From a virus, in the IMG/VR virus record IMGVR_UViG_3300045988_132388: 64,000 nt of DNA. One strand, 5' to 3'. The notes beneath the pieces were generated by a model. It searched no databases. It was not told the DNA's origin and saw only the letters and a list, made by a program, of their open reading frames with translations. Numbering within the stretch: position 1 is the stretch's first letter; each line of letters starts with the position of its first letter. Shown here piece after piece: positions 2,658 to 21,846 of this stretch. Made by a program: the position numbers and the translations under genes.

Positions 2658-3239
2658 TTAATCAGTAAAAGTAGACGAGGTTTCGCCAAAGGGACTGAGC
2701 TTATCCATGACAAATGGTATAGTACAGACATATTGCGCTACTTTATAGCGTAGGTCTTCTTTCGACATACCTCCATTGTTAAATATTCTGCGGTCGAATT
2801 TAATCCCCATAGCTGCATTCAGACGCTCCACGTCCCGCAATATACGTGAGAGCTTGACACCTCTTGCCAAACGTGTTACTGTAGAACTTTTGATATAAAA
2901 GGAATATATCTGAATTTCGGGATGACGATCTTTCATGTCTATCAATCCGACTTCATCCACAATATAGATAGCTATATCTTTCACCTGATCTACAGTAGCC
3001 CAATATTCATAGCCACCATACTGTGTATATGCTAACACCTCATCAGGATCCACATTAAACTCTTTTACAAAATGATGCTCTCTGCCTTCCTGTTCTCCTT
3101 CACGCATAGGACGTGTGGTATAGGAACAGATAATAGGCCAGTCTGTCATTTCTGACATTATCCGAGCTACAGTGTCCTTTCCTGCACCGCTCAGACCGGT
3201 AATTGTTATTAGTTTCATATCAATCTTCTTTATATTCAC
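2658..3239 (-). CDS. guanylate-kinase-family (d)NMP kinase
   Basis: 193 aa. P-loop GLSGAGKDT plus TTRPMREGEQEGREHHFV, the guanylate kinase signature block. Confidence 0.7.
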   Translation of the reverse strand: MNIKKIDMKLITITGLSGAGKDTVARIMSEMTDWPIICSYTTRPMREGEQEGREHHFVKEFNVDPDEVLAYTQYGGYEYWATVDQVKDIAIYIVDEVGLIDMKDRHPEIQIYSFYIKSSTVTRLARGVKLSRILRDVERLNAAMGIKFDRRIFNNGGMSKEDLRYKVAQYVCTIPFVMDKLSPFGETSSTFTD

Positions 3240-4326
3240 TCAAAAGAGCGTTGCCGCAGGTTATTCTATCCTCGTCCTCTTCCACAGAAGGAACAAAAAC
3301 AATCACATCCCAACCTGCCTTGACAAGCGGTTGTTCAAACTGTTTGTAAACATCGTATGTGTAATATCCCTCCTCAGTCTGAATGCCATTACTTATAGCC
3401 TCTTTTGTCTCGTGAATAGGAGTTATCTTTACAATGAACTTTTCCTTATCAAAGAGTTTGTCCAAAACGGCAGGGTCTAATATCGTGTCTTTAGTGACAG
3501 GAAAATTCAACGTGTACTTTCTGCCGACCGGCATAGGTAAATCACGGCAAATCTCTGAGATTTCCTGCAAAGTCAAGGATCGACCACGGAACAAATCATT
3601 ACGCTGCTCTTCATCTGTAGAGTTTATAGACAACTGCAATCCGGCTTCACCTCTAAACTCGTAGTTCTTGAGTTGACAGAACTCACCAAGAATACGTTTC
3701 AGAGTTTTGCTTCCCAAAGAACCCGGAAGCATGGTCGTAAATACAGGATGGATAACATCTGCATCCATGAATACGTTGACATCATCCCTGAGATAGCACA
3801 GCAAATATATCTTGATGTTATTCCAGTTGAATGACGGTTCGCCCATACGAGCCAGATGAAGGTTGAAACGCTTGGTGTGCTGACACTCCGAACGAACGAT
3901 AGCCGATATTACTTCTTCTCGCAGATCGCTAACCTTAGCATTACCGTGGAAACCGACTTTAGGGCAGTCACAGAACTTACATTTCATCGGACATCCTTTT
4001 TGAGTGGAAATAGTAACAACCATCTTATCCTCAAGATCTACCTTCTTATGGGTTACACCATTAATTTCCTTAGTCAATCCAAGGAAGTCCGCCTTTATGT
4101 TGGCTTCCTTGCCATAGTCGCCAACATATAAATATTCAAGACATTTTTTAGTATCACTAAAAATTGCTCCAGTACGAGTCTTAGATTCTTTAATCATAAT
4201 AGAAATACATATCGTTTTATTGATATTTTCAATCTTTAATTCAAATGGACGAGAAGTTATAAAACGAGGTGAGCCACATTCTTTATACGGCACTTCTGTG
4301 ATAGTGATGGCGATAGTGATAGCCAC
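3220..4326 (-). CDS. radical SAM enzyme, RlmN/Cfr-like
   Basis: Has CX3CX2C (CPMKCKFC). ARMGEPSFNW, LQLSINSTDEEQR, KITPIHET and C-terminal ITCGNAL parallel the RlmN/Cfr blocks as remembered. The listed start is a GTG at 4326 inside a DNA repeat; the ATG at 4197 is an alternative start. Confidence 0.7.
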   Translation of the reverse strand: MAITIAITITEVPYKECGSPRFITSRPFELKIENINKTICISIMIKESKTRTGAIFSDTKKCLEYLYVGDYGKEANIKADFLGLTKEINGVTHKKVDLEDKMVVTISTQKGCPMKCKFCDCPKVGFHGNAKVSDLREEVISAIVRSECQHTKRFNLHLARMGEPSFNWNNIKIYLLCYLRDDVNVFMDADVIHPVFTTMLPGSLGSKTLKRILGEFCQLKNYEFRGEAGLQLSINSTDEEQRNDLFRGRSLTLQEISEICRDLPMPVGRKYTLNFPVTKDTILDPAVLDKLFDKEKFIVKITPIHETKEAISNGIQTEEGYYTYDVYKQFEQPLVKAGWDVIVFVPSVEEDEDRITCGNALLSEYKED

Positions 4327-4350
4327 CGCAGTCGGGTGATAGTGATAGCG
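4298..4350. repeat. three direct copies of GATAGTGAT(A/G)G
   Basis: Reads gtgatagtgatgg / cgatagtgatagcc / ggtgatagtgatagcg. Lies between the tRNA-like element and the radical SAM gene and overlaps its longest predicted start. Confidence 0.6.
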
Positions 4351-4392
4351 AAATAAAAGATGTTGACTGCGGAGTGATTTTCGCGCAATACT

Positions 4393-4480
4393 TGCTCTAA
4401 CCAGCTGAGCTACTTTTCTTCCGAAAAGAAAAGATAGGATTCGAACCTATGACCTCGTGAGACACGTTTCGGAAAAACGT
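4393..4480 (-). ncRNA. tRNA-like gene with permuted half order (anticodon arm, T arm and 3' acceptor strand lie upstream of the 5' acceptor strand and D arm)
   Basis: Minus strand reads ACGTT-TTTCCGA-AACGT, then a 13-nt segment, then ATAGG-TTCGAAT-CCTAT and CTTTTCT, a short loop, then AGAAAAG-TA-GCTC-AGCTGGTTA-GAGC-A. The T arm and D arm are consensus-quality. The two acceptor strands form a closed 8-bp hairpin. Confidence 0.45.
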
Positions 4481-4585
4481 ATGATTCACTAAAAAGAAAA
4501 CTCCGTATGCTATCAGTGTGAGGGTCAGTTTCACGGTACAAAACCTTCAGTCTGACCTTACCCACCTCGTATTATATTTTATGTT

Positions 4586-5509
4586 TTACAAACCGTTGAC
4601 CTCCGCATATATTCCCTGGAGATTATTAGGGATGATAATGCGCAGAGACGTTATCTCTTTGATTTCTTCCTGTTGCCACTCAACGAACATCGTCTGTAAT
4701 CTCGACATTTCGGTATCGAAATTGTTTCTCTTTTCTTGATGTTCTGCATACTTCTTCTTGTATTCAGCCAATCGCTTGCTGTACTCCTTCTCGGCTTCAA
4801 TGCGGAAACGATGCTCAATACCATTAAACTCAGCTTGCAATGCTCGATATTCGCCCTGAAGCTGAAAGAAGGTCCTGTTCAGTCGGTCGATGGTACCGGG
4901 TTCAACATTATAAGAGAACACGACCATATCGCGGCCTTCACCTTCTATCTCCGTAGGATTAGCCAGACGGTGTGACACTCTCTTCAAGGCCAGAGGCAAC
5001 AGTCCGTCGGGATGAATATACTTACCATACACCGCCATCTTGGTTTTCAACTCAATATAGCGGTTGCGATCCTTTACGTTCAGAATCTCGTTGCCCACCT
5101 TGTCAATATCGGAAACGGGGTCAGGAGCAACCGGCTTTTCAGGAAGAGTAATATTGTGATCGTCAGCCCACACCATGAAGTTGCAGTCTTGCACTGACTT
5201 CAAACCTTTCTCACGTTCATTGATAGCCTCACGCAGCCAACCGATAAGGGCATTGCACTGAGCTACGCGACGTATAACATCGGGAATAGCATCAAGGGTG
5301 TCAAGAGGGGCTTCCACAATCGACGGCTGTGTATCCCCAAGCAGACGTGCGCTCTTGGTGTAAAGACGTAAGGTATCAGCCTGCGCTAAGATGCGCTGCG
5401 CATACTCTTTAGCCATGTTTGCAACATGGTTAGCAGATGTGGCTGTCAAACCTTCTTTCGCAAAAAATACTTTGTTCATATATATCGTTTTTTGTTCGTA
5501 TTTTAACAT
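4586..5509 (-). CDS. hypothetical protein with coiled-coil C-terminus
   Basis: 307-aa ORF; an alternative ATG at 5479 gives MNKVFFAKEG. No family recognised. Confidence 0.65.
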   Translation of the reverse strand: MLKYEQKTIYMNKVFFAKEGLTATSANHVANMAKEYAQRILAQADTLRLYTKSARLLGDTQPSIVEAPLDTLDAIPDVIRRVAQCNALIGWLREAINEREKGLKSVQDCNFMVWADDHNITLPEKPVAPDPVSDIDKVGNEILNVKDRNRYIELKTKMAVYGKYIHPDGLLPLALKRVSHRLANPTEIEGEGRDMVVFSYNVEPGTIDRLNRTFFQLQGEYRALQAEFNGIEHRFRIEAEKEYSKRLAEYKKKYAEHQEKRNNFDTEMSRLQTMFVEWQQEEIKEITSLRIIIPNNLQGIYAEVNGL

Positions 5510-5539
5510 TTTAGCAATCAGTAGAGAATCATAAGACCA

Positions 5540-5567
5540 CCGTAAGACATCCGTAAGCTATCCGTAA
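5540..5567. repeat. three CCGTAA cores at 11-bp phasing
   Basis: Reads caCCGTAAgacatCCGTAAgctatCCGTAAagg. The last two copies read ATCCGTA, the same 7-mer as the core of the origin iterons (caaATCCGTAgg). Confidence 0.5.
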
Positions 5568-7016: not shown

Positions 7017-7526
7017 ATGCAGATTAAAACGCAAAACGGCGACTATGACGTTGCCAGCAAGGGACTGGGCAATACAGCTCTCGGTCTCGGCATCGCAGGA
7101 TTGGCTACCAGTCTGTTAGGCGGTGGTGCAATGCTCGGTGGTCTTGGAAATGGCAAACAAATGACTGCCAACCCTAACGACCCCGACGCAAGGTTCGTAA
7201 CCAAGAGCGAGACTAACCTGATCCAGGAGAACTCTACTCTCAAAACGGAACTTGCTATCCAGAAGAGTGAAAACTACACAGACAAGAAGCTTGTAGAGGT
7301 GACACAGTATATCGACACGAAGCTGCGCCGTGTGGAAGACAAGGTTGATGCCAACAAGGACGCACAGCAAGCCGTGAACGCACAGCAGATGGCTTACAAT
7401 GCCGCTGCAAATGCAAACATCGACGTGCTGAAGTCACAGGTGGCAGCACTGAACGGTGTCACTAAACTCTTTGTACCGTCATCTAATGTCTGTCAGACGG
7501 GATGCGGTTGTGGTTGCAACGCATAA
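7017..7526 (+). CDS. hypothetical protein with Gly-zipper N-terminus, coiled coil and C-terminal CQTGCGCGCNA
   Basis: 169-aa ORF, first gene after a TAnnTTTG box. Confidence 0.65.
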   Translation: MQIKTQNGDYDVASKGLGNTALGLGIAGLATSLLGGGAMLGGLGNGKQMTANPNDPDARFVTKSETNLIQENSTLKTELAIQKSENYTDKKLVEVTQYIDTKLRRVEDKVDANKDAQQAVNAQQMAYNAAANANIDVLKSQVAALNGVTKLFVPSSNVCQTGCGCGCNA

Positions 7527-9556: not shown

Positions 9557-10462
9557 ATGGAACTACGACATCTACGATCTTTTGTTTATGTGGCGGAAAC
9601 TCTTTCATTTTCTGTCGCCGCCGACCGATGTTGCGTCACGCAATCGGCAATCAGTCAACACATCAAAACCCTGGAGGAAGAGCTGGGATGCAAACTACTA
9701 ATTCGTACCTCGCACGACATTACGCTTACAGAATACGGCGAAGCTCTTTTGCCTCGCGCAAAGGACATACTAAAGCAGACCGCCGACTGTAAAGAACATA
9801 TACATGCACTAAACAACTGCATGACCGGTGAGTTGCGTATTGGTGTTGGTTCGTTTATCGCTCCATATATCCGCGAGGCTGCAATCATTTTTATGGAGCG
9901 TTACCCTAACGTAAGGCTTAATGCTGAAATGACAAAAGCCACCAGCCTGAACCATCTGTTACGCAACCACGAACTCGACATAGCGTTCACGATGAACACA
10001 GCATATAAGAATGAGGGTATTGAATCTATACCGTGCATACCCTTCCATATCTACGCCATAATGCGCAACACCCATCCATTGGCAAAACTGCCGGAGGTGT
10101 CATATAAGGATATGCTCTGCCACAGCGTTATTATGCCGGCTGTGGGGGAACGTGTGTTCAATACCTTTCAGCAATATATGCGACACGACCTTACGAAGCT
10201 CAACATCAAGTGTATAGTAAGTGATCCTGACGAAGACCTTGCTATCGTGGAGGAAAAACAAAGCATAACTTTTATGCCTAAGCTTTATCTGAAGAACCAC
10301 CCTACCCTCGTTGCCAAACCTATTGCTGAACTAAAGACAGCCCTTATGAGTAATGCTCACTATATGCAGGACGTGCCTCTCAAACGCTCCGCACAGATAT
10401 TCCTTGACATTATAAGACAAGAAGCAATACCATATATCCAGGAATTGGAGAAAACCTATTGA
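9557..10462 (+). CDS. LysR-family transcriptional regulator
   Basis: 301 aa. N-terminal MELRHLRSFVYVAETLSFSVAADRCCVTQSAISQHIKTLEEELGCKLLIR is the classic LysR HTH. The length fits a LysR substrate-binding domain. Confidence 0.9.
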   Translation: MELRHLRSFVYVAETLSFSVAADRCCVTQSAISQHIKTLEEELGCKLLIRTSHDITLTEYGEALLPRAKDILKQTADCKEHIHALNNCMTGELRIGVGSFIAPYIREAAIIFMERYPNVRLNAEMTKATSLNHLLRNHELDIAFTMNTAYKNEGIESIPCIPFHIYAIMRNTHPLAKLPEVSYKDMLCHSVIMPAVGERVFNTFQQYMRHDLTKLNIKCIVSDPDEDLAIVEEKQSITFMPKLYLKNHPTLVAKPIAELKTALMSNAHYMQDVPLKRSAQIFLDIIRQEAIPYIQELEKTY

Positions 10463-19264: not shown

Positions 19265-20320
19265 ATGAAAATAGGACTCATAGACGTGGACGGACGACAC
19301 GGCAAAAAGAAATGGGGAGCTACGATATACCCTAACGTGGCTCTCGGCAAGATTGCACGTTGGCACACGAAGTGGGGCGACAAGGTTGAATGGGCTCAGC
19401 CTACCAACCTTTTCGACAGGCATCATTACGACATACTGTATGCCAGCAAGGTGTTCAACTTTTCGCCCGACATCGACTTTCGACAGTTCTCATTCGGCCG
19501 ACTGGAGAAGGGTGGCACTGGCTATGACATCTATAAGCGCCTGCCTGACGAGATAGACCGACTGCAACCGCTATATGAGTTGTTCCCATGGGTACCAAAG
19601 AACCATGCTTACGGCAAACTGACCGAAGGCTGTCCCAACAAGTGTTTCTGGTGTGTAGTGCCAAAGAAGGAAGGACTCATACGCCCGTACATGGATATAG
19701 AGGAGATAGCCATCGAGGGCAGAACGCACGTTGTGCTGATGGACAACAACATTCTTGCGGCGGGCGACTATGCCAAGAAGCAGCTTCAGAAGATAATCGA
19801 CCTCGGTCTGCATATCGACTTCAATCAGGCGATGGACGCACGGCTTGTCACTCCCGAATATGCCGAGCTGTTAGGCAAGGTGAAATGGATAGACTCCCGC
19901 ATCCGCTTTGGTTGCGACACCACCGCACAGATTGCAGAATGTGAGCGAGCCATGCAACTTATCAATGCGGCAGGATTCCGTGGCGAATATTTCCTATATA
20001 CCATGATAGGCGGAAAGAACGACTTTCGAGAATGTTTCCACCGTCTGCACTACTGGTGGGAGCGACTGCAACGCTTCCGCAAGAACCATGAAGGCAGAGC
20101 CGTGTATGCCTACGCACAACCATACCGCGACCCTACAAATCCCAATCACGCCATCCCCGAATGGCAGAAGGATATGGCCCGATGGTGCAACAAGCGAATG
20201 ATATTCTACGCCACCGATTTCAAGGACTTCATGCCAAGAAAAGGATTCAGGTGCGAGGAATATCTGAGGGAATACGAAGTGAACGGAAACGGAATCGAGG
20301 CATCTACTGCCTGTAGGTGA
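19265..20320 (+). CDS. radical SAM protein (second, unrelated to 3220-4326)
   Basis: 351 aa. CX3CX2C motif CPNKCFWC follows a ~120-aa N-terminal domain. Confidence 0.7.
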   Translation: MKIGLIDVDGRHGKKKWGATIYPNVALGKIARWHTKWGDKVEWAQPTNLFDRHHYDILYASKVFNFSPDIDFRQFSFGRLEKGGTGYDIYKRLPDEIDRLQPLYELFPWVPKNHAYGKLTEGCPNKCFWCVVPKKEGLIRPYMDIEEIAIEGRTHVVLMDNNILAAGDYAKKQLQKIIDLGLHIDFNQAMDARLVTPEYAELLGKVKWIDSRIRFGCDTTAQIAECERAMQLINAAGFRGEYFLYTMIGGKNDFRECFHRLHYWWERLQRFRKNHEGRAVYAYAQPYRDPTNPNHAIPEWQKDMARWCNKRMIFYATDFKDFMPRKGFRCEEYLREYEVNGNGIEASTACR

Positions 20321-20814: not shown

Positions 20815-21846
20815 ATGGAGTTAAACATTACGCTTTCTGAAGCATTGGAGCGAGCTTCGGAAGGACTGCGAAAGAAGATGCTTCACTCAGTGGAGCTACT
20901 GCAAAAAGCAGAGAGGATTGCTCTGAACTATGATGCCGAGAATGGATATTACTTAGCGTTTAGTGGTGGAAAGGACTCTCAAACTCTTTTCCACATAACT
21001 CAGTTAGCTGGAGTTAAATTCCACGGTCACATGAGTCTAACAAGCATTGATCCACCCGAAGTGATACGTTTCGCAAAGAAGAACTATCCCGAAGTGGAAC
21101 TGCTAAAGCCTGGCAAATCAATCTTCCAGCACGCTGTAGAAAATCAAATTCTGCCCACTATGCGTGTGCGTTGGTGTTGCGCTGAATACAAGGAGACGGC
21201 AGGTGCTGGCAAGGTTACGCTAATCGGCATCCGCAAGGCAGAGAGCACACGCCGAGCCAAGCGAAATGAGGTGGAAATAAACAACCGAAAGTTTAGCGGC
21301 GATCTTGACGGTCTCGACGAATACCGACAGGAGCAGAAGGCTAAACGTGCTCGTCGCAAATCTAAAGAGCAAGGTGTGAACATCACAAATGCTGATGAAG
21401 AAAAGACGTTAGGTTGCATCCACGGCAAAGAGAGTCTGCTGATCTCGCCCATCATCTATTGGACGGAAAAGGACGTATGGGAGTTCCTCAACGATGTAGT
21501 GAGGGTTCCACATTGCTCGCTTTACGATGAGGGTTGGCATCGCATAGGTTGCATAGGCTGCCCAATGTCGTCTGCAAAGCAGAAGCGCATCGAGAACGAA
21601 CGTTATCCGCACGTAAAACGAAACTGGATTAAGGCGATTAAAGCCATCCGAAACGGGGGGGGTATTCAAAAAAGAATATATCTGGTGGAACATCCGGAAG
21701 GACTGGATGCCTCTCAGAAATGTCAGAGGATTGCTCAGGACGCAGGCGGCTACATCAAGCATTCAGACCCAAAACACTGGATGGGGAGGAAGAATACGAG
21801 GAGCAGCTATGCCAACACCAGGGGTTTCATCCAGCTCCTCTTCTGA
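20815..21846 (+). CDS. PAPS-reductase/DndC-like PP-loop ATPase family protein
   Basis: PP-loop YLAFSGGKDSQ. A G8 tract at 21655-21662 precedes the point where the next frame stays open to 21979. Confidence 0.75.
   Translation: MELNITLSEALERASEGLRKKMLHSVELLQKAERIALNYDAENGYYLAFSGGKDSQTLFHITQLAGVKFHGHMSLTSIDPPEVIRFAKKNYPEVELLKPGKSIFQHAVENQILPTMRVRWCCAEYKETAGAGKVTLIGIRKAESTRRAKRNEVEINNRKFSGDLDGLDEYRQEQKAKRARRKSKEQGVNITNADEEKTLGCIHGKESLLISPIIYWTEKDVWEFLNDVVRVPHCSLYDEGWHRIGCIGCPMSSAKQKRIENERYPHVKRNWIKAIKAIRNGGGIQKRIYLVEHPEGLDASQKCQRIAQDAGGYIKHSDPKHWMGRKNTRSSYANTRGFIQLLF

What the first reader, a model, noticed from the sequence alone, without database searches (positions are those of the whole stretch)
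4370..4505. tRNA-like gene with circularly permuted half order
Read on the minus strand, the order of elements is as follows.
- An anticodon-type arm, ACGTT-TTTCCGA-AACGT: 5 bp, a 7-nt loop, U33, and UCC in the anticodon position.
- A 13-nt segment.
- A perfect T arm, ATAGG-TTCGAAT-CCTAT.
- The acceptor 3' strand, CTTTTCT.
- A 5-7 nt loop.
- The complementary acceptor 5' strand, AGAAAAG.
- UA plus a perfect D arm, GCTC-AGCTGGTTA-GAGC.

The 3' half therefore precedes the 5' half, and the acceptor stem is closed into an 8-bp hairpin. No purine-rich partner for CTTTTCT exists upstream, so a normal tRNA cannot be drawn. The flanks are complementary: CGGAGT-TTTTC (4496-4505) pairs with GAAAA-tc-ACTCCG (4370-4382), giving 11 bp with a 2-nt bulge. 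That could hold the two ends together. I know of permuted tRNA genes only in a few eukaryotic algae and split tRNAs in archaea, not in a bacterial virus. The neighbour is an RlmN/Cfr-like enzyme, and RlmN modifies tRNA A37 as well as rRNA. A 48-nt bulged hairpin (4518-4565) lies just upstream on the same strand.
Basis: partly seen in the sequence, partly recalled or inferred. Interest (0 to 1): 0.75.

Follow-up and report, generated by a model that had tools for sequence, protein, structure and literature searches.

The report
Capped tRNA mimic inside phage RNA
The "permuted tRNA" is real, but it is a tRNA-shaped module with a hairpin-capped acceptor stem (the layout known from bacterial YrlA Y RNAs), and it sits inside a roughly 310-base structured phage RNA that always follows one uncharacterised protein gene and that I could not match to any described RNA family.

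Summary
It is not a tRNA gene. ARAGORN finds nothing, and the "anticodon arm" is an ordinary hairpin whose loop is 4-9 nt in relatives.

[quoted passage not shown] Rfam YrlA matches below threshold (33.6 bits, cut-off 69).

Across 19 such modules from related phages, 93% of cells pair and 14 of 17 pairs show compensatory changes. The tertiary 15:48 pair also covaries (UA 10, CG 8).

Three defining YrlA features fail: no Ro60/TROVE gene in 64 kb, no GNCGAA motif, and a sub-threshold score.

The module is embedded in a ~310-nt RNA (4570→4257) closed by nested long-range helices with compensatory changes. This RNA lies directly after a 297-aa protein gene whose family has 1169 representative clusters and no annotation. 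Most family members lack the tRNA-like module.

Function is inferred, not shown.

The parts
4257..4570 (-). Whole structured non-coding RNA-like region (~310 nt) that contains the finding. It runs from the 5' strand of closing helix P1 to the U run after its 3' strand.
   Evidence: RNAalifold on 13 sequences gives 67 pairs, 10 of them with compensatory changes. Pairing is 98% against 35-51% for slid controls. MFE z-score is -3.6. No Rfam family matches.
4586..5479 (-). Gene for a 297-aa protein of unknown function. The RNA always lies directly downstream of it on the same strand.
   Evidence: The linkage is seen in all relatives examined. There is no Pfam, PHROG, NCBIfam or PDB match. AF2 gives pLDDT 79, a helical coiled-coil, with no informative Foldseek hit. 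The family has 1169 representative clusters.
4560..4570 (-). P1 5' strand, ACGAGGUGGGU.
   Evidence: It pairs with 4264-4274. Four of the 11 pairs are compensatory between the window clade and the L005 clade.
4264..4274 (-). P1 3' strand, GCUCACCUCGU, running into UUUU (4264-4261).
   Evidence: Analogous closing helices followed by a U run are seen in L108, L111, L172 and L197.
4523..4557 (-).
   Evidence: The motif is found 15-58 nt (once 78) after the stop codon in 40 of 153 distinct loci, with 13 different complementary stems. The regex used required at least 5 paired bases.
4503..4509 (-). P4 5' strand, CAUACGG (long-range).
   Evidence: It pairs with 4284-4290. Pairing is 97.8% across 13 sequences.
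4284..4290 (-). P4 3' strand, CCGUAUA.
4464..4480 (-).
   Evidence: A hairpin is kept but loop size and sequence are not (4, 4, 7, 9 nt; a different hairpin in L026). It corresponds to the YrlA 'V' stem-loop.
4451..4463 (-). Linker ending in GAGGUC, the equivalent of tRNA positions 44-48. C4451 is position 48.
   Evidence: Position 48 covaries with D-loop position 15: UA 10, CG 8, other 1 in 19 modules.
4434..4450 (-). T arm, AUAGG-UUCGAAU-CCUAU.
   Evidence: three of 5 pairs compensatory, G53-C61 invariant. A 22-23-nt stretch is identical to real phage tRNAs.
4413..4433 (-). AS, the closed acceptor-like hairpin: CUUUUCU - UUUCGGA - AGAAAAG.
   Evidence: All 7 pairs show compensatory changes across modules. 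Stem length varies from 4 to 8 bp in relatives, with GNRA caps in L047 and L196.
4394..4412 (-). U8-A9 plus the D arm, GCUC-AGCUGGUUA-GAGC.
   Evidence: A 24-nt stretch is identical to phage tRNA-Asn and tRNA-Met.
4365..4372 (-). P7 5' strand, CCGCAGUC.
   Evidence: It pairs with 4326-4333. Two pairs are compensatory and pairing is 100%.
4326..4333 (-). P7 3' strand, GACUGCGG.
4336..4349 (-). First block of 6-nt periodic repeats (GCUAUCACUAUCAC), in the P7 loop.
4298..4322 (-). Second block of 6-nt periodic repeats (CUAUCA CUAUCG CCAUCA CUAUCA C), predicted to be mostly single-stranded.
   Evidence: The lag-6 signal is family-wide: 17.4/30 against 14.0-14.7 for other lags and for shuffles.

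Best explanation
Window 4393-4456 (minus strand), together with the hairpin at 4464-4480, is a non-decoding tRNA mimic. A T arm, a hairpin-capped acceptor-like stem and a D arm follow one another on one strand, so the module can fold into the tRNA L-shape with a normal D-loop/T-loop elbow. It has no free CCA end and, in this phage, no anticodon arm. This is the topology of the tRNA-like domain of bacterial YrlA Y RNAs.

The module is one domain of a ~310-nt structured RNA (4570→4257). That RNA is closed by nested long-range helices, ends in a U run, and always lies just downstream of a conserved 297-aa phage protein gene.

Shown:
- The helices and their covariation, including the tertiary 15:48 pair.
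- The nested architecture.
- The genetic linkage to the protein gene.
- The absence of Ro60.
- The module is optional within the RNA family.

Inferred:
- The RNA is transcribed, probably together with the upstream gene.
- Its single-stranded 6-nt repeats bind the adjacent protein.
- The tRNA-shaped module serves as a handle or decoy for host factors that recognise the tRNA elbow. Candidates are RNase P, TruB, Dus, the CCA-adding enzyme, or a tRNA-directed defence nuclease.
- It most likely arose by capture of neighbouring tRNA genes.
For: - The YrlA model matches full length at 33.6 bits, E=1.1e-5. Relatives score 32-38 bits.
- In 19 modules, 93.1% of cells pair against 39-49% for slid controls, and 14 of 17 pairs have changes on both sides. 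The Levitt pair 15:48, which was not used to select modules, is UA 10 / CG 8 / other 1.
- U8, A14, G18G19, T54-T55-C56, A58 and G53-C61 are present.
- Model R1 gives a single window hit. It detects untrained modules in L193, L196, L197 and L174 at 48-66 bits, always 130-230 nt after the protein gene.
- The embedding RNA pairs at 98% against 35-51% for controls, with 10 compensatory pairs.
- A distant clade without the module keeps the same architecture, with 30 of 40 pairs compensatory.
- UUCG and GNRA caps occur on the hairpins, which are RNA-type features.
- Acceptor-hairpin length varies from 4 to 8 bp, so the acceptor end is not the selected part. The elbow is invariant.
- The literature reports that YrlA has a tRNA fold, is modified by TruB and DusA, and has an elbow proposed as the effector site (PMC4201824; bioRxiv 10.1101/312249).
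Against: - There is no expression data.
- No sigma-70-like promoter or simple terminator is found on the minus strand.
- The Rfam score is below the gathering threshold.
- How the module joins the rest of the RNA is unresolved. AGUG at 4490-4487 has three possible CAC partners and none covaries.
- Most covariation inside the window's own clade rests on one deep split, the window clade against the L005 clade.
- Part of the pairing percentage is by construction, because several modules were picked with a pairing-based pattern.
- The function (handle or decoy) and the binding of the adjacent protein are pure inference.
Confidence: 0.7

Rival explanations
1. It is a bona fide Y RNA (YrlA family member) that works by binding a host-encoded Ro60/Rsr protein, as the known phage YrlA RNAs are assumed to do.
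For: The best Rfam match is YrlA over the full model. The order V, T, AS, D is the same. YrlA RNAs are known in 22 phages.
Against: - The score is 33.6 bits against a gathering score of 69.
- No TROVE domain is found in any of 50 window ORFs of about 130 aa or more.
- The GNCGAAN0-1G motif is absent from the window RNA and from 21 of 22 relatives.
- The module is optional within a larger RNA that is linked to a different protein.
Confidence: 0.1
2. RNase P and a 3' processing activity cut the capped acceptor hairpin, and CCA is added, as happens with M. smegmatis YrlA. This would split the large RNA into two base-paired pieces, in the manner of two-piece tmRNA. The module would then be mainly a processing signal or an acceptor-bearing tRNA-like end.
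For: - The window's stem is exactly 7 bp stacked on a 5-bp T stem, the RNase P determinant cited for M. smegmatis YrlA.
- Real tRNA genes abut the RNA in relatives, so RNase P probably already acts on these transcripts.
- Some relatives keep anticodon-like arms.
Against: - The stem is 4-6 bp with GNRA or 3-nt caps in L047, L196 and L108. Processing therefore cannot be the family-wide role.
- A -1:73 A-U pair extends the window stem to 8 bp.
- The window has no anticodon arm.
- ARAGORN, which detects permuted tmRNA, finds nothing. Position 3:70 is A-U, not G-U.
Confidence: 0.07
3. It is a genuine circularly permuted tRNA gene. The ends are joined through the flank helix, the acceptor loop is removed, and a decoding tRNA-Gly(UCC) results.
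For: In the window alone the hairpin 4480-4464 has a 7-nt loop with U33 and UCC, and the flanks can pair.
Against: - Loop size and sequence are not conserved.
- The flank helix is broken in relatives.
- A 13-nt spacer precedes the T arm and no 26/27 junction can be drawn.
- No bulge-helix-bulge motif is present. Bacteria lack the splicing endonuclease used by the algal system (own knowledge).
Confidence: 0.02
4. It is a decayed junction of two tandem tRNA genes, an attP fragment, or an assembly artefact with no function.
For: BLAST hits of 67 nt at 75% identity straddle adjacent tRNA genes in Campylobacter and Vibrio phages. Tandem tRNAs are the known false positives of YrlA searches. My model also hits such junctions, at 46 bits or less.
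Against: - The two acceptor strands are complementary to each other and covary: CUUUUCU/AGAAAAG, CGUUUCU/AGAAAUG, CGUUUCC/GGAAAUG, and unrelated sequences in distant clades.
- No flanking tRNA halves are present.
- The same arrangement occurs in at least 13 independent contigs.
Confidence: 0.02
5. The region acts as DNA, for example as a replication origin or protein-binding iterons next to the primase and replication genes, and the RNA-like features are incidental.
For: There are short direct repeats with 6-nt periodicity. The region sits in a replication and nucleotide-metabolism module: primase, ThyX and guanylate kinase.
Against: - Helices 200-300 nt apart show compensatory changes.
- A tertiary RNA pair covaries.
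- Conserved T-loop and D-loop sequences and UUCG/GNRA caps have no meaning in duplex DNA.
- A 6-bp period does not match the DNA helical repeat.
Confidence: 0.04

Closest known systems
YrlA Y RNAs (Rfam RF02553; Chen et al. 2014, PMC4201824; Wang et al. 2018, bioRxiv 10.1101/312249)
   Same: - The order is V hairpin, T arm, closed acceptor-like hairpin, UA, D arm.
- The tRNA tertiary nucleotides are present and 15:48 covaries.
- Acceptor-hairpin length is variable.
- Occurrence in phages and next to tRNA genes.
- A presumed tRNA origin.
   Different: - No Ro60/TROVE gene nearby.
- No GNCGAAN0-1G motif.
- The Rfam score is half the gathering score.
- The module is embedded in a three-fold larger RNA with its own conserved helices and 6-nt repeats.
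- Relatives carry two modules in series, class II (Leu/Ser-type) D arms and closed anticodon-like arms.
- The linked protein is a 297-aa coiled-coil protein of unknown function.
M. smegmatis YrlA, cleaved by RNase P with CCA added (PMC4201824)
   Same: A seven-base-pair acceptor-like stem closed by a loop, as in the window.
   Different: Cleavage is untested here. Relatives with 4-6 bp capped stems argue that it is not the conserved role.
Circularly permuted tRNA genes of Cyanidioschyzon merolae and other algae (own knowledge; reviewed in PMC4090602)
   Same: The 3' half is encoded upstream of the 5' half, with the acceptor strands joined by an intervening loop.
   Different: The algal genes mature, via a bulge-helix-bulge motif, a circular intermediate and RNase P/Z, into ordinary decoding tRNAs. 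Here there is no conserved junction helix, no BHB, and no anticodon arm in the window.
Two-piece (permuted) tmRNA (own knowledge)
   Same: A T arm and 3' acceptor strand are encoded upstream of the 5' acceptor strand, within a larger RNA.
   Different: There is no ARAGORN or Rfam tmRNA hit, no G3-U70, and no tag reading frame was identified. The D arm is complete, unlike tmRNA.
GOLLD and ROOL large 'ornate' RNAs (PMC5737381; PMC12286853)
   Same: A large structured RNA of unknown function, found in phages and prophages and often beside tRNA genes.
   Different: No sequence or structure match is found in Rfam. It is smaller (~250-450 nt) and strictly linked to one protein gene.

Membership tests
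YrlA / bacterial Y RNA (RF02553) | T stem-loop, closed acceptor-like stem-loop and D stem-loop in that order, with a V stem-loop upstream | tested here: met
YrlA / bacterial Y RNA (RF02553) | tRNA tertiary-interaction nucleotides, including compensatory 15:48 (Levitt) changes | tested here: met
   15:48 is UA 10 / CG 8 / other 1. G18G19, T54-T55-C56, A58, U8 and A14 are present.
YrlA / bacterial Y RNA (RF02553) | GNCGAAN0-1G motif near the 5' end (presumed Ro60 contact) | tested here: not met
   Absent in the window RNA and in 21 of 22 relatives. The single hit lies inside an acceptor hairpin.
YrlA / bacterial Y RNA (RF02553) | Encoded within about 4 kb of a Ro60/TROVE gene on the same strand | tested here: not met
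   No TROVE domain is found in 50 ORFs of the 64-kb window. None is found among the called genes of L193, L196 or L197.
YrlA / bacterial Y RNA (RF02553) | Reaches the Rfam gathering score (69 bits) | tested here: not met
   33.6 bits. Nothing is reported at gathering thresholds.
YrlA / bacterial Y RNA (RF02553) | Bound by Ro60/Rsr in vivo | not testable with these tools
   Needs immunoprecipitation.
Canonical tRNA gene | Cloverleaf in which the acceptor stem is formed by the 5' and 3' ends | tested here: not met
   ARAGORN finds 0 genes. Rfam tRNA scores 17.3 bits against 29.
Canonical tRNA gene | Conserved 7-nt anticodon loop on a 5-bp stem | tested here: not met
   Loop sizes of 4, 4, 7 and 9 nt, and a replaced hairpin, are seen in relatives.
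Permuted tRNA gene (algal type) | 3' half upstream of 5' half, joined by an intervening sequence at the acceptor | tested here: met
Permuted tRNA gene (algal type) | Conserved leader-trailer helix (BHB) that allows circularisation into a complete tRNA | tested here: not met
   The flank helix is 81% paired, with three pairs broken and uncompensated. It competes with the conserved P4 and P7 helices.
Two-piece tmRNA | Detected as tmRNA; G3-U70 alanine identity; tag reading frame | tested here: not met
   No tmRNA is found by ARAGORN or Rfam. Position 3:70 is A-U.
GOLLD / ROOL | Match to the family covariance model | tested here: not met
   No hit even at E<=10 on the locus, nor in 22 related loci.

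The most novel reading that the evidence does not exclude
The module belongs to a previously undescribed class of structured RNAs (~250-450 nt) in phages of Bacteroidales. These RNAs would form a ribonucleoprotein with the adjacent ~290-aa coiled-coil protein, through the 6-nt periodic repeats. They would have repeatedly absorbed neighbouring tRNA genes as capped, circularly permuted tRNA modules: one or two per RNA, of class I and class II types, some still carrying anticodon arms, including a CUA loop. On this reading it is a Ro60-independent counterpart of Y RNAs that presents tRNA elbows to host tRNA-handling or tRNA-targeting factors during infection.
Probability: 0.45. Interest if true: 0.8.

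Novelty: new variant of a known kind. Interest (0 to 1): 0.62.

Why it matters
tRNA mimicry with a capped acceptor stem has so far been tied to Ro60 and Y RNAs, and the job of the tRNA-like domain is still unknown. Here the same module appears without Ro60 and in a different RNA scaffold. It is linked to a large unannotated phage protein family, and it is present in some clades and absent in others.

That gives natural gain-and-loss comparisons for asking what a capped tRNA elbow is for: processing signal, protein handle, or decoy against tRNA-directed defences. It also flags a widespread structured RNA plus protein pair in gut and rumen Bacteroidales phages that has no Rfam model or annotation.

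Tried and rejected
- ARAGORN and Rfam at gathering thresholds on the whole window found nothing.
- Megablast of 2 kb against 50,697 phage records found no match.
- I used the radical-SAM neighbour to find relatives. This gave 18 loci, but only one carried the element, and there it lay elsewhere. That showed the linkage was to the other neighbour.
- The RlmN link was rejected. The match covers only the radical-SAM core and the adjacency is not conserved.
- The search for Ro60/TROVE, RtcB or other RNA-repair partners among the window ORFs found none.
- PHROGs, NCBIfam, the PDB sequence profile, and Foldseek against PDB and BFVD for the 297-aa protein gave nothing informative.
- The two INPHARED records with a homologue annotate it as hypothetical, or are unannotated.
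- A naive count of 8-bp-or-longer closing helices did not discriminate from shuffles: 152 against 152. I replaced it with alignment-based covariation.
- A hammerhead reading of ACUGA...GAAAC was considered and dropped, because the CUGANGA core is not kept in relatives.
- I tried to decide which CAC pairs with AGUG 4490-4487. This remains unresolved.
- One possibly relevant 2026 preprint on non-coding element mining could not be opened.
Full report
**Observation.** On the minus strand the window reads as follows:
- hairpin ACGTT-TTTCCGA-AACGT, 4480-4464
- GTCTCACGAGGTC, 4463-4451
- T arm ATAGG-TTCGAAT-CCTAT, 4450-4434
- CTTTTCT, 4433-4427
- TTTCGGA, 4426-4420
- AGAAAAG, 4419-4413
- TA, 4412-4411
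- D arm GCTC-AGCTGGTTA-GAGC, 4410-4394

The flank complementarity is there too, as 10 bp with a 3-nt bulge. No cloverleaf can be drawn: ARAGORN reports no tRNA or tmRNA in 64 kb, Rfam at gathering thresholds reports nothing, and the Rfam tRNA model reaches only 17.3 bits.

Pieces of the element are nonetheless tRNA sequence. A 24-nt stretch over the D arm and a 22-23-nt stretch over the T arm are identical to real phage tRNAs. Longer, weaker matches straddle the junction of two adjacent tRNA genes.

**What it resembles.** A permissive Rfam scan of 4250-4650 gives one meaningful hit: YrlA (RF02553), full model, 33.6 bits, E=1.1e-5, at 4475-4364 on the minus strand. The YrlA consensus is an outer stem, then a T arm, a closed hairpin and a D arm. 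This is the 'permuted' order.

Chen et al. 2014 (PMC4201824) described YrlA RNAs next to Ro60 genes in 254 bacterial species and 22 phages. They named the parts V, T, AS (the acceptor-like stem-loop) and D. They showed TruB and DusA modification, and they showed RNase P cleavage plus CCA addition for the M. smegmatis RNA, whose AS has 7 bp.

Wang et al. 2018 (bioRxiv 10.1101/312249) solved the fold.

**Relatives and linkage.** Relatives found through the radical-SAM neighbour mostly lack the element. The one that has it (L005) carries it after a different gene.

The constant neighbour is the upstream gene 4586-5479(-), which encodes a 297-aa protein. Every locus recovered through that protein at 57-97% identity has the element directly downstream on the same strand. 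The next gene is usually guanylate kinase.

The radical-SAM protein matches RlmN only over the radical-SAM core (41.7 bits, cut-off 290). Its listed GTG start (4326) overlaps the RNA. Relatives align from residue ~37-50, so ATG 4212 is the likely start.

**The 'anticodon arm'.** In close relatives the loop is UUCG (L022) or UCCG (L023). In L026 the hairpin is replaced by another one. In L005 the loop has 9 nt, and in L193 it is a different 7-nt loop. Only 'a hairpin here' is conserved, which is the V stem-loop of YrlA-type RNAs. UCC is not an anticodon.

**Is the module a selected RNA structure?** I collected 19 modules from the window clade and from relatives whose protein is 30-65% identical (A4). 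With the T, AS and D helices imposed:
- 93.1% of cells pair, against 39-49% when partners are slid by 1-3 columns.
- 14 of 17 pairs carry changes on both sides.
- All seven AS pairs covary.
- The tertiary Levitt pair 15:48 is U-A in 10 modules, C-G in 8 and other in 1.

Several modules were picked with a pattern that demanded pairing, so the percentage is partly by construction. The 15:48 pair was not part of any selection.

A covariance model built from A4 (R1) finds one hit in the window, 4393-4456(-), at 75 bits. It also finds untrained modules in L193, L196, L197 and L174 at 48-66 bits. All true modules lie 130-230 nt after the protein gene. Weaker hits (46 bits or less) are junctions in tRNA arrays. 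These are the false-positive class that Chen et al. warned about.

**The module is part of a larger RNA.** The whole intergenic region aligns across 13 sequences from two clades at ~71% identity (A3). RNAalifold predicts nested long-range helices:
- P1: 4570-4560 with 4274-4264 (11 bp, four compensatory pairs), followed by UUUU.
- P3: 4518-4516 with 4277-4275 (two compensatory pairs).
- P4: CAUACGG 4509-4503 with CCGUAUA 4290-4284.
- P7: CCGCAGUC 4372-4365 with GACUGCGG 4333-4326 (two compensatory pairs).
- The 5' hairpin P2 (4557-4523).
- The T, AS and D helices.

Overall 98% of cells pair, against 35-51% for slid controls, and 10 pairs are compensatory against 0-3 in the controls. The MFE z-score is -3.6.

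It is 81% paired, three of the six CGGAG(U) pairs are broken and uncompensated in the L005 clade, and its terminal C-G pair exists in the window sequence alone. Its strands are used by P4 and P7.

Its ACUGA...GAAAC internal loop, flanked by 13 different complementary stems, recurs in 40 of 153 distinct loci.

The 3' half carries 6-nt periodic repeats: CUAUCA in the window and NNCUUG in other clades. The lag-6 signal is 17.4/30, against about 14 for other lags and for shuffles.

**The wider family.** The protein family has 1169 representative clusters at E<=0.001, nearly all ~290 aa. Its members sit in phage contigs and in Bacteroidales MAGs (Prevotella, Muribaculaceae).

A distant clade (protein ~31-34% identical) keeps the same layout: a 5' hairpin, a 16-bp closing helix, a P7-like helix around the first repeats, and then further repeats. 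There, 30 of 40 predicted pairs are compensatory. That clade has no tRNA-like module, and a real tRNA gene starts right after the RNA.

tRNA-like modules occur only in some clades:
- the window clade
- L193 (65% protein identity)
- L005 (57%)
- L196 (53%)
- L197 (46%, two modules)
- L047 (36%)
- the ~30% clade L108-L111 and L172-L179 (two modules each)

In these the AS is 4-8 bp, with GCAA or GGAA caps in L047 and L196. Some D arms are of the class II (Leu/Ser) type. Several modules keep a closed anticodon-like arm, with loops UUGCUAA, UUCAAAA, CUCUAAA or UUUUGGU. The window clade has lost this arm through a 12-nt gap.

In the ~30% clade and in L197, the class I modules have flanks that form a 4-5 bp anticodon-stem analogue, as in YrlA. 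This is by direct reading. In the window no such stem is evident, and the partner of AGUG 4490-4487 is unresolved.

No Rfam family matches the large RNA in 22 related loci. The annotated phage records that hold a homologue call the protein hypothetical and annotate nothing in the gap.

**Partner proteins.** No TROVE/Ro60 domain, RtcB or RNA ligase is found among 50 window ORFs, nor among the called genes of L193, L196 and L197. The Ro60-associated GNCGAAN0-1G motif is absent.

The 297-aa protein has no Pfam, PHROG, NCBIfam or PDB relative. AlphaFold2 (pLDDT 79) predicts long helices with small sheets. Foldseek finds only one uncharacterised phage protein.

**Most likely mechanism.**
- Shown: a tRNA-shaped, capped, non-decoding module embedded in a larger structured RNA that is genetically coupled to one protein family.
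- Inferred, with moderate confidence: the selected feature is the elbow. The T-loop, D-loop and 15:48 are invariant or covarying, whereas the acceptor length, the V hairpin and the anticodon arm are free to vary or disappear. The tRNA elbow is the docking site of RNase P, TruB, the ribosome and other factors. The module is therefore best seen as a handle or decoy that brings a tRNA-recognising factor to the RNA-protein complex, or diverts it.
- Speculative: the periodic single-stranded repeats are the obvious candidate site for the adjacent, probably oligomeric, protein.
- RNase P processing at 4420/4419 is possible in this phage, which has a 7-bp stem. It cannot be the general role.
- Proximity to tRNA arrays and a tmRNA in relatives suggests that the modules arose by capture of neighbouring tRNA genes.

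**Classification and score.** By topology and tertiary signature it works like a YrlA tRNA-like domain. It fails three defining tests of that family: Ro60 linkage, the GNCGAA motif and the gathering score. I therefore file it as a new variant of a known kind, not as a member.

The embedding RNA and its protein partner appear undescribed, within the limits of Rfam 15 and the literature library I could search.

Interest is 0.62. The headline claim ('permuted tRNA gene in a phage') reduces to a known architecture. The Ro60-independent context, the multi-module relatives and the new RNA-protein pair are surprising and testable.

Noticed in passing
window 4298-4322 and 4336-4349 (-); the same region in L046, L053, L066, L090, L099, L197: The 3' half of the RNA carries 6-nt periodic, pyrimidine-rich repeats: CUAUCA in the window clade and NNCUUG or NUUUUG in other clades. 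The best lag-6 self-match is 17.4/30, against 14.0-14.7 for lags 4, 5, 7, 8 and 9 and for shuffles, over 154 sequences.
   Followed up: partly
window 3220-4326 (-): The mechanical GTG start of the radical-SAM ORF (4326) overlaps the 3' part of the RNA. Relatives align only from residue ~37-50, so ATG at 4212 is the likely start. The RlmN similarity is confined to the radical-SAM core.
   Followed up: partly
L005 6148-6164, L193 ~7090-7106, L172 ~3930-3946, L196 ~5441-5455: A hairpin with the loop UUGCUAA recurs in distant clades, with compensatory stems, at different places relative to the tRNA-like module. It follows the D arm in most and precedes the T arm in L196.
   Followed up: no
L197 ~3315-3333; L196 ~5530-5548; L109 and L190 ~3806-3824: Anticodon-like arms follow class II D arms in relatives. 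Their loops are CUCUAAA (a CUA, amber-suppressor-like triplet), UUCAAAA (CAA) and UUUUGGU. The L109/L190 stems differ by compensatory changes.
   Followed up: no
L053 1689-2073; L110 2192-2262; tRNA arrays in L053, L066, L090, L092, L099: Relatives carry a tmRNA gene (61.7 bits, GA 47), a near-threshold RAGATH-1 hammerhead (55.2 bits, GA 56.3) and arrays of tRNA genes, all within 2 kb of the 297-aa gene homologue.
   Followed up: no
L172, L174 and L179 ~4105-4190; clade A5 (L064, L066, L069 and others) ~3655-3690: A genuine tRNA gene begins within about 15 nt of the 3' strand of the RNA's closing helix. This suggests co-transcription, with the RNA's 3' end made by RNase P.
   Followed up: no
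window 9557-10462 (+): A LysR-type transcriptional regulator (HTH_1 plus LysR_substrate) is encoded in an otherwise phage-like window that also has terminase, tape measure, holin, sliding clamp, ligase and ParA genes.
   Followed up: no
window 19265-20320 (+) and 20815-21846 (+): A second radical-SAM protein (phrog_9298) and a PAPS-reductase-like protein lie together. ThyX, guanylate kinase and MazG are also present, which may point to a nucleotide or DNA modification module.
   Followed up: no
window 4487-4490 (-) with 4457-4459, 4374-4376 or 4304-4306: AGUG upstream of the V hairpin has three mutually exclusive CAC partners. Each is 82-92% paired in relatives and none covaries, so how the tRNA-like module is joined to the scaffold is unresolved.
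   Followed up: yes
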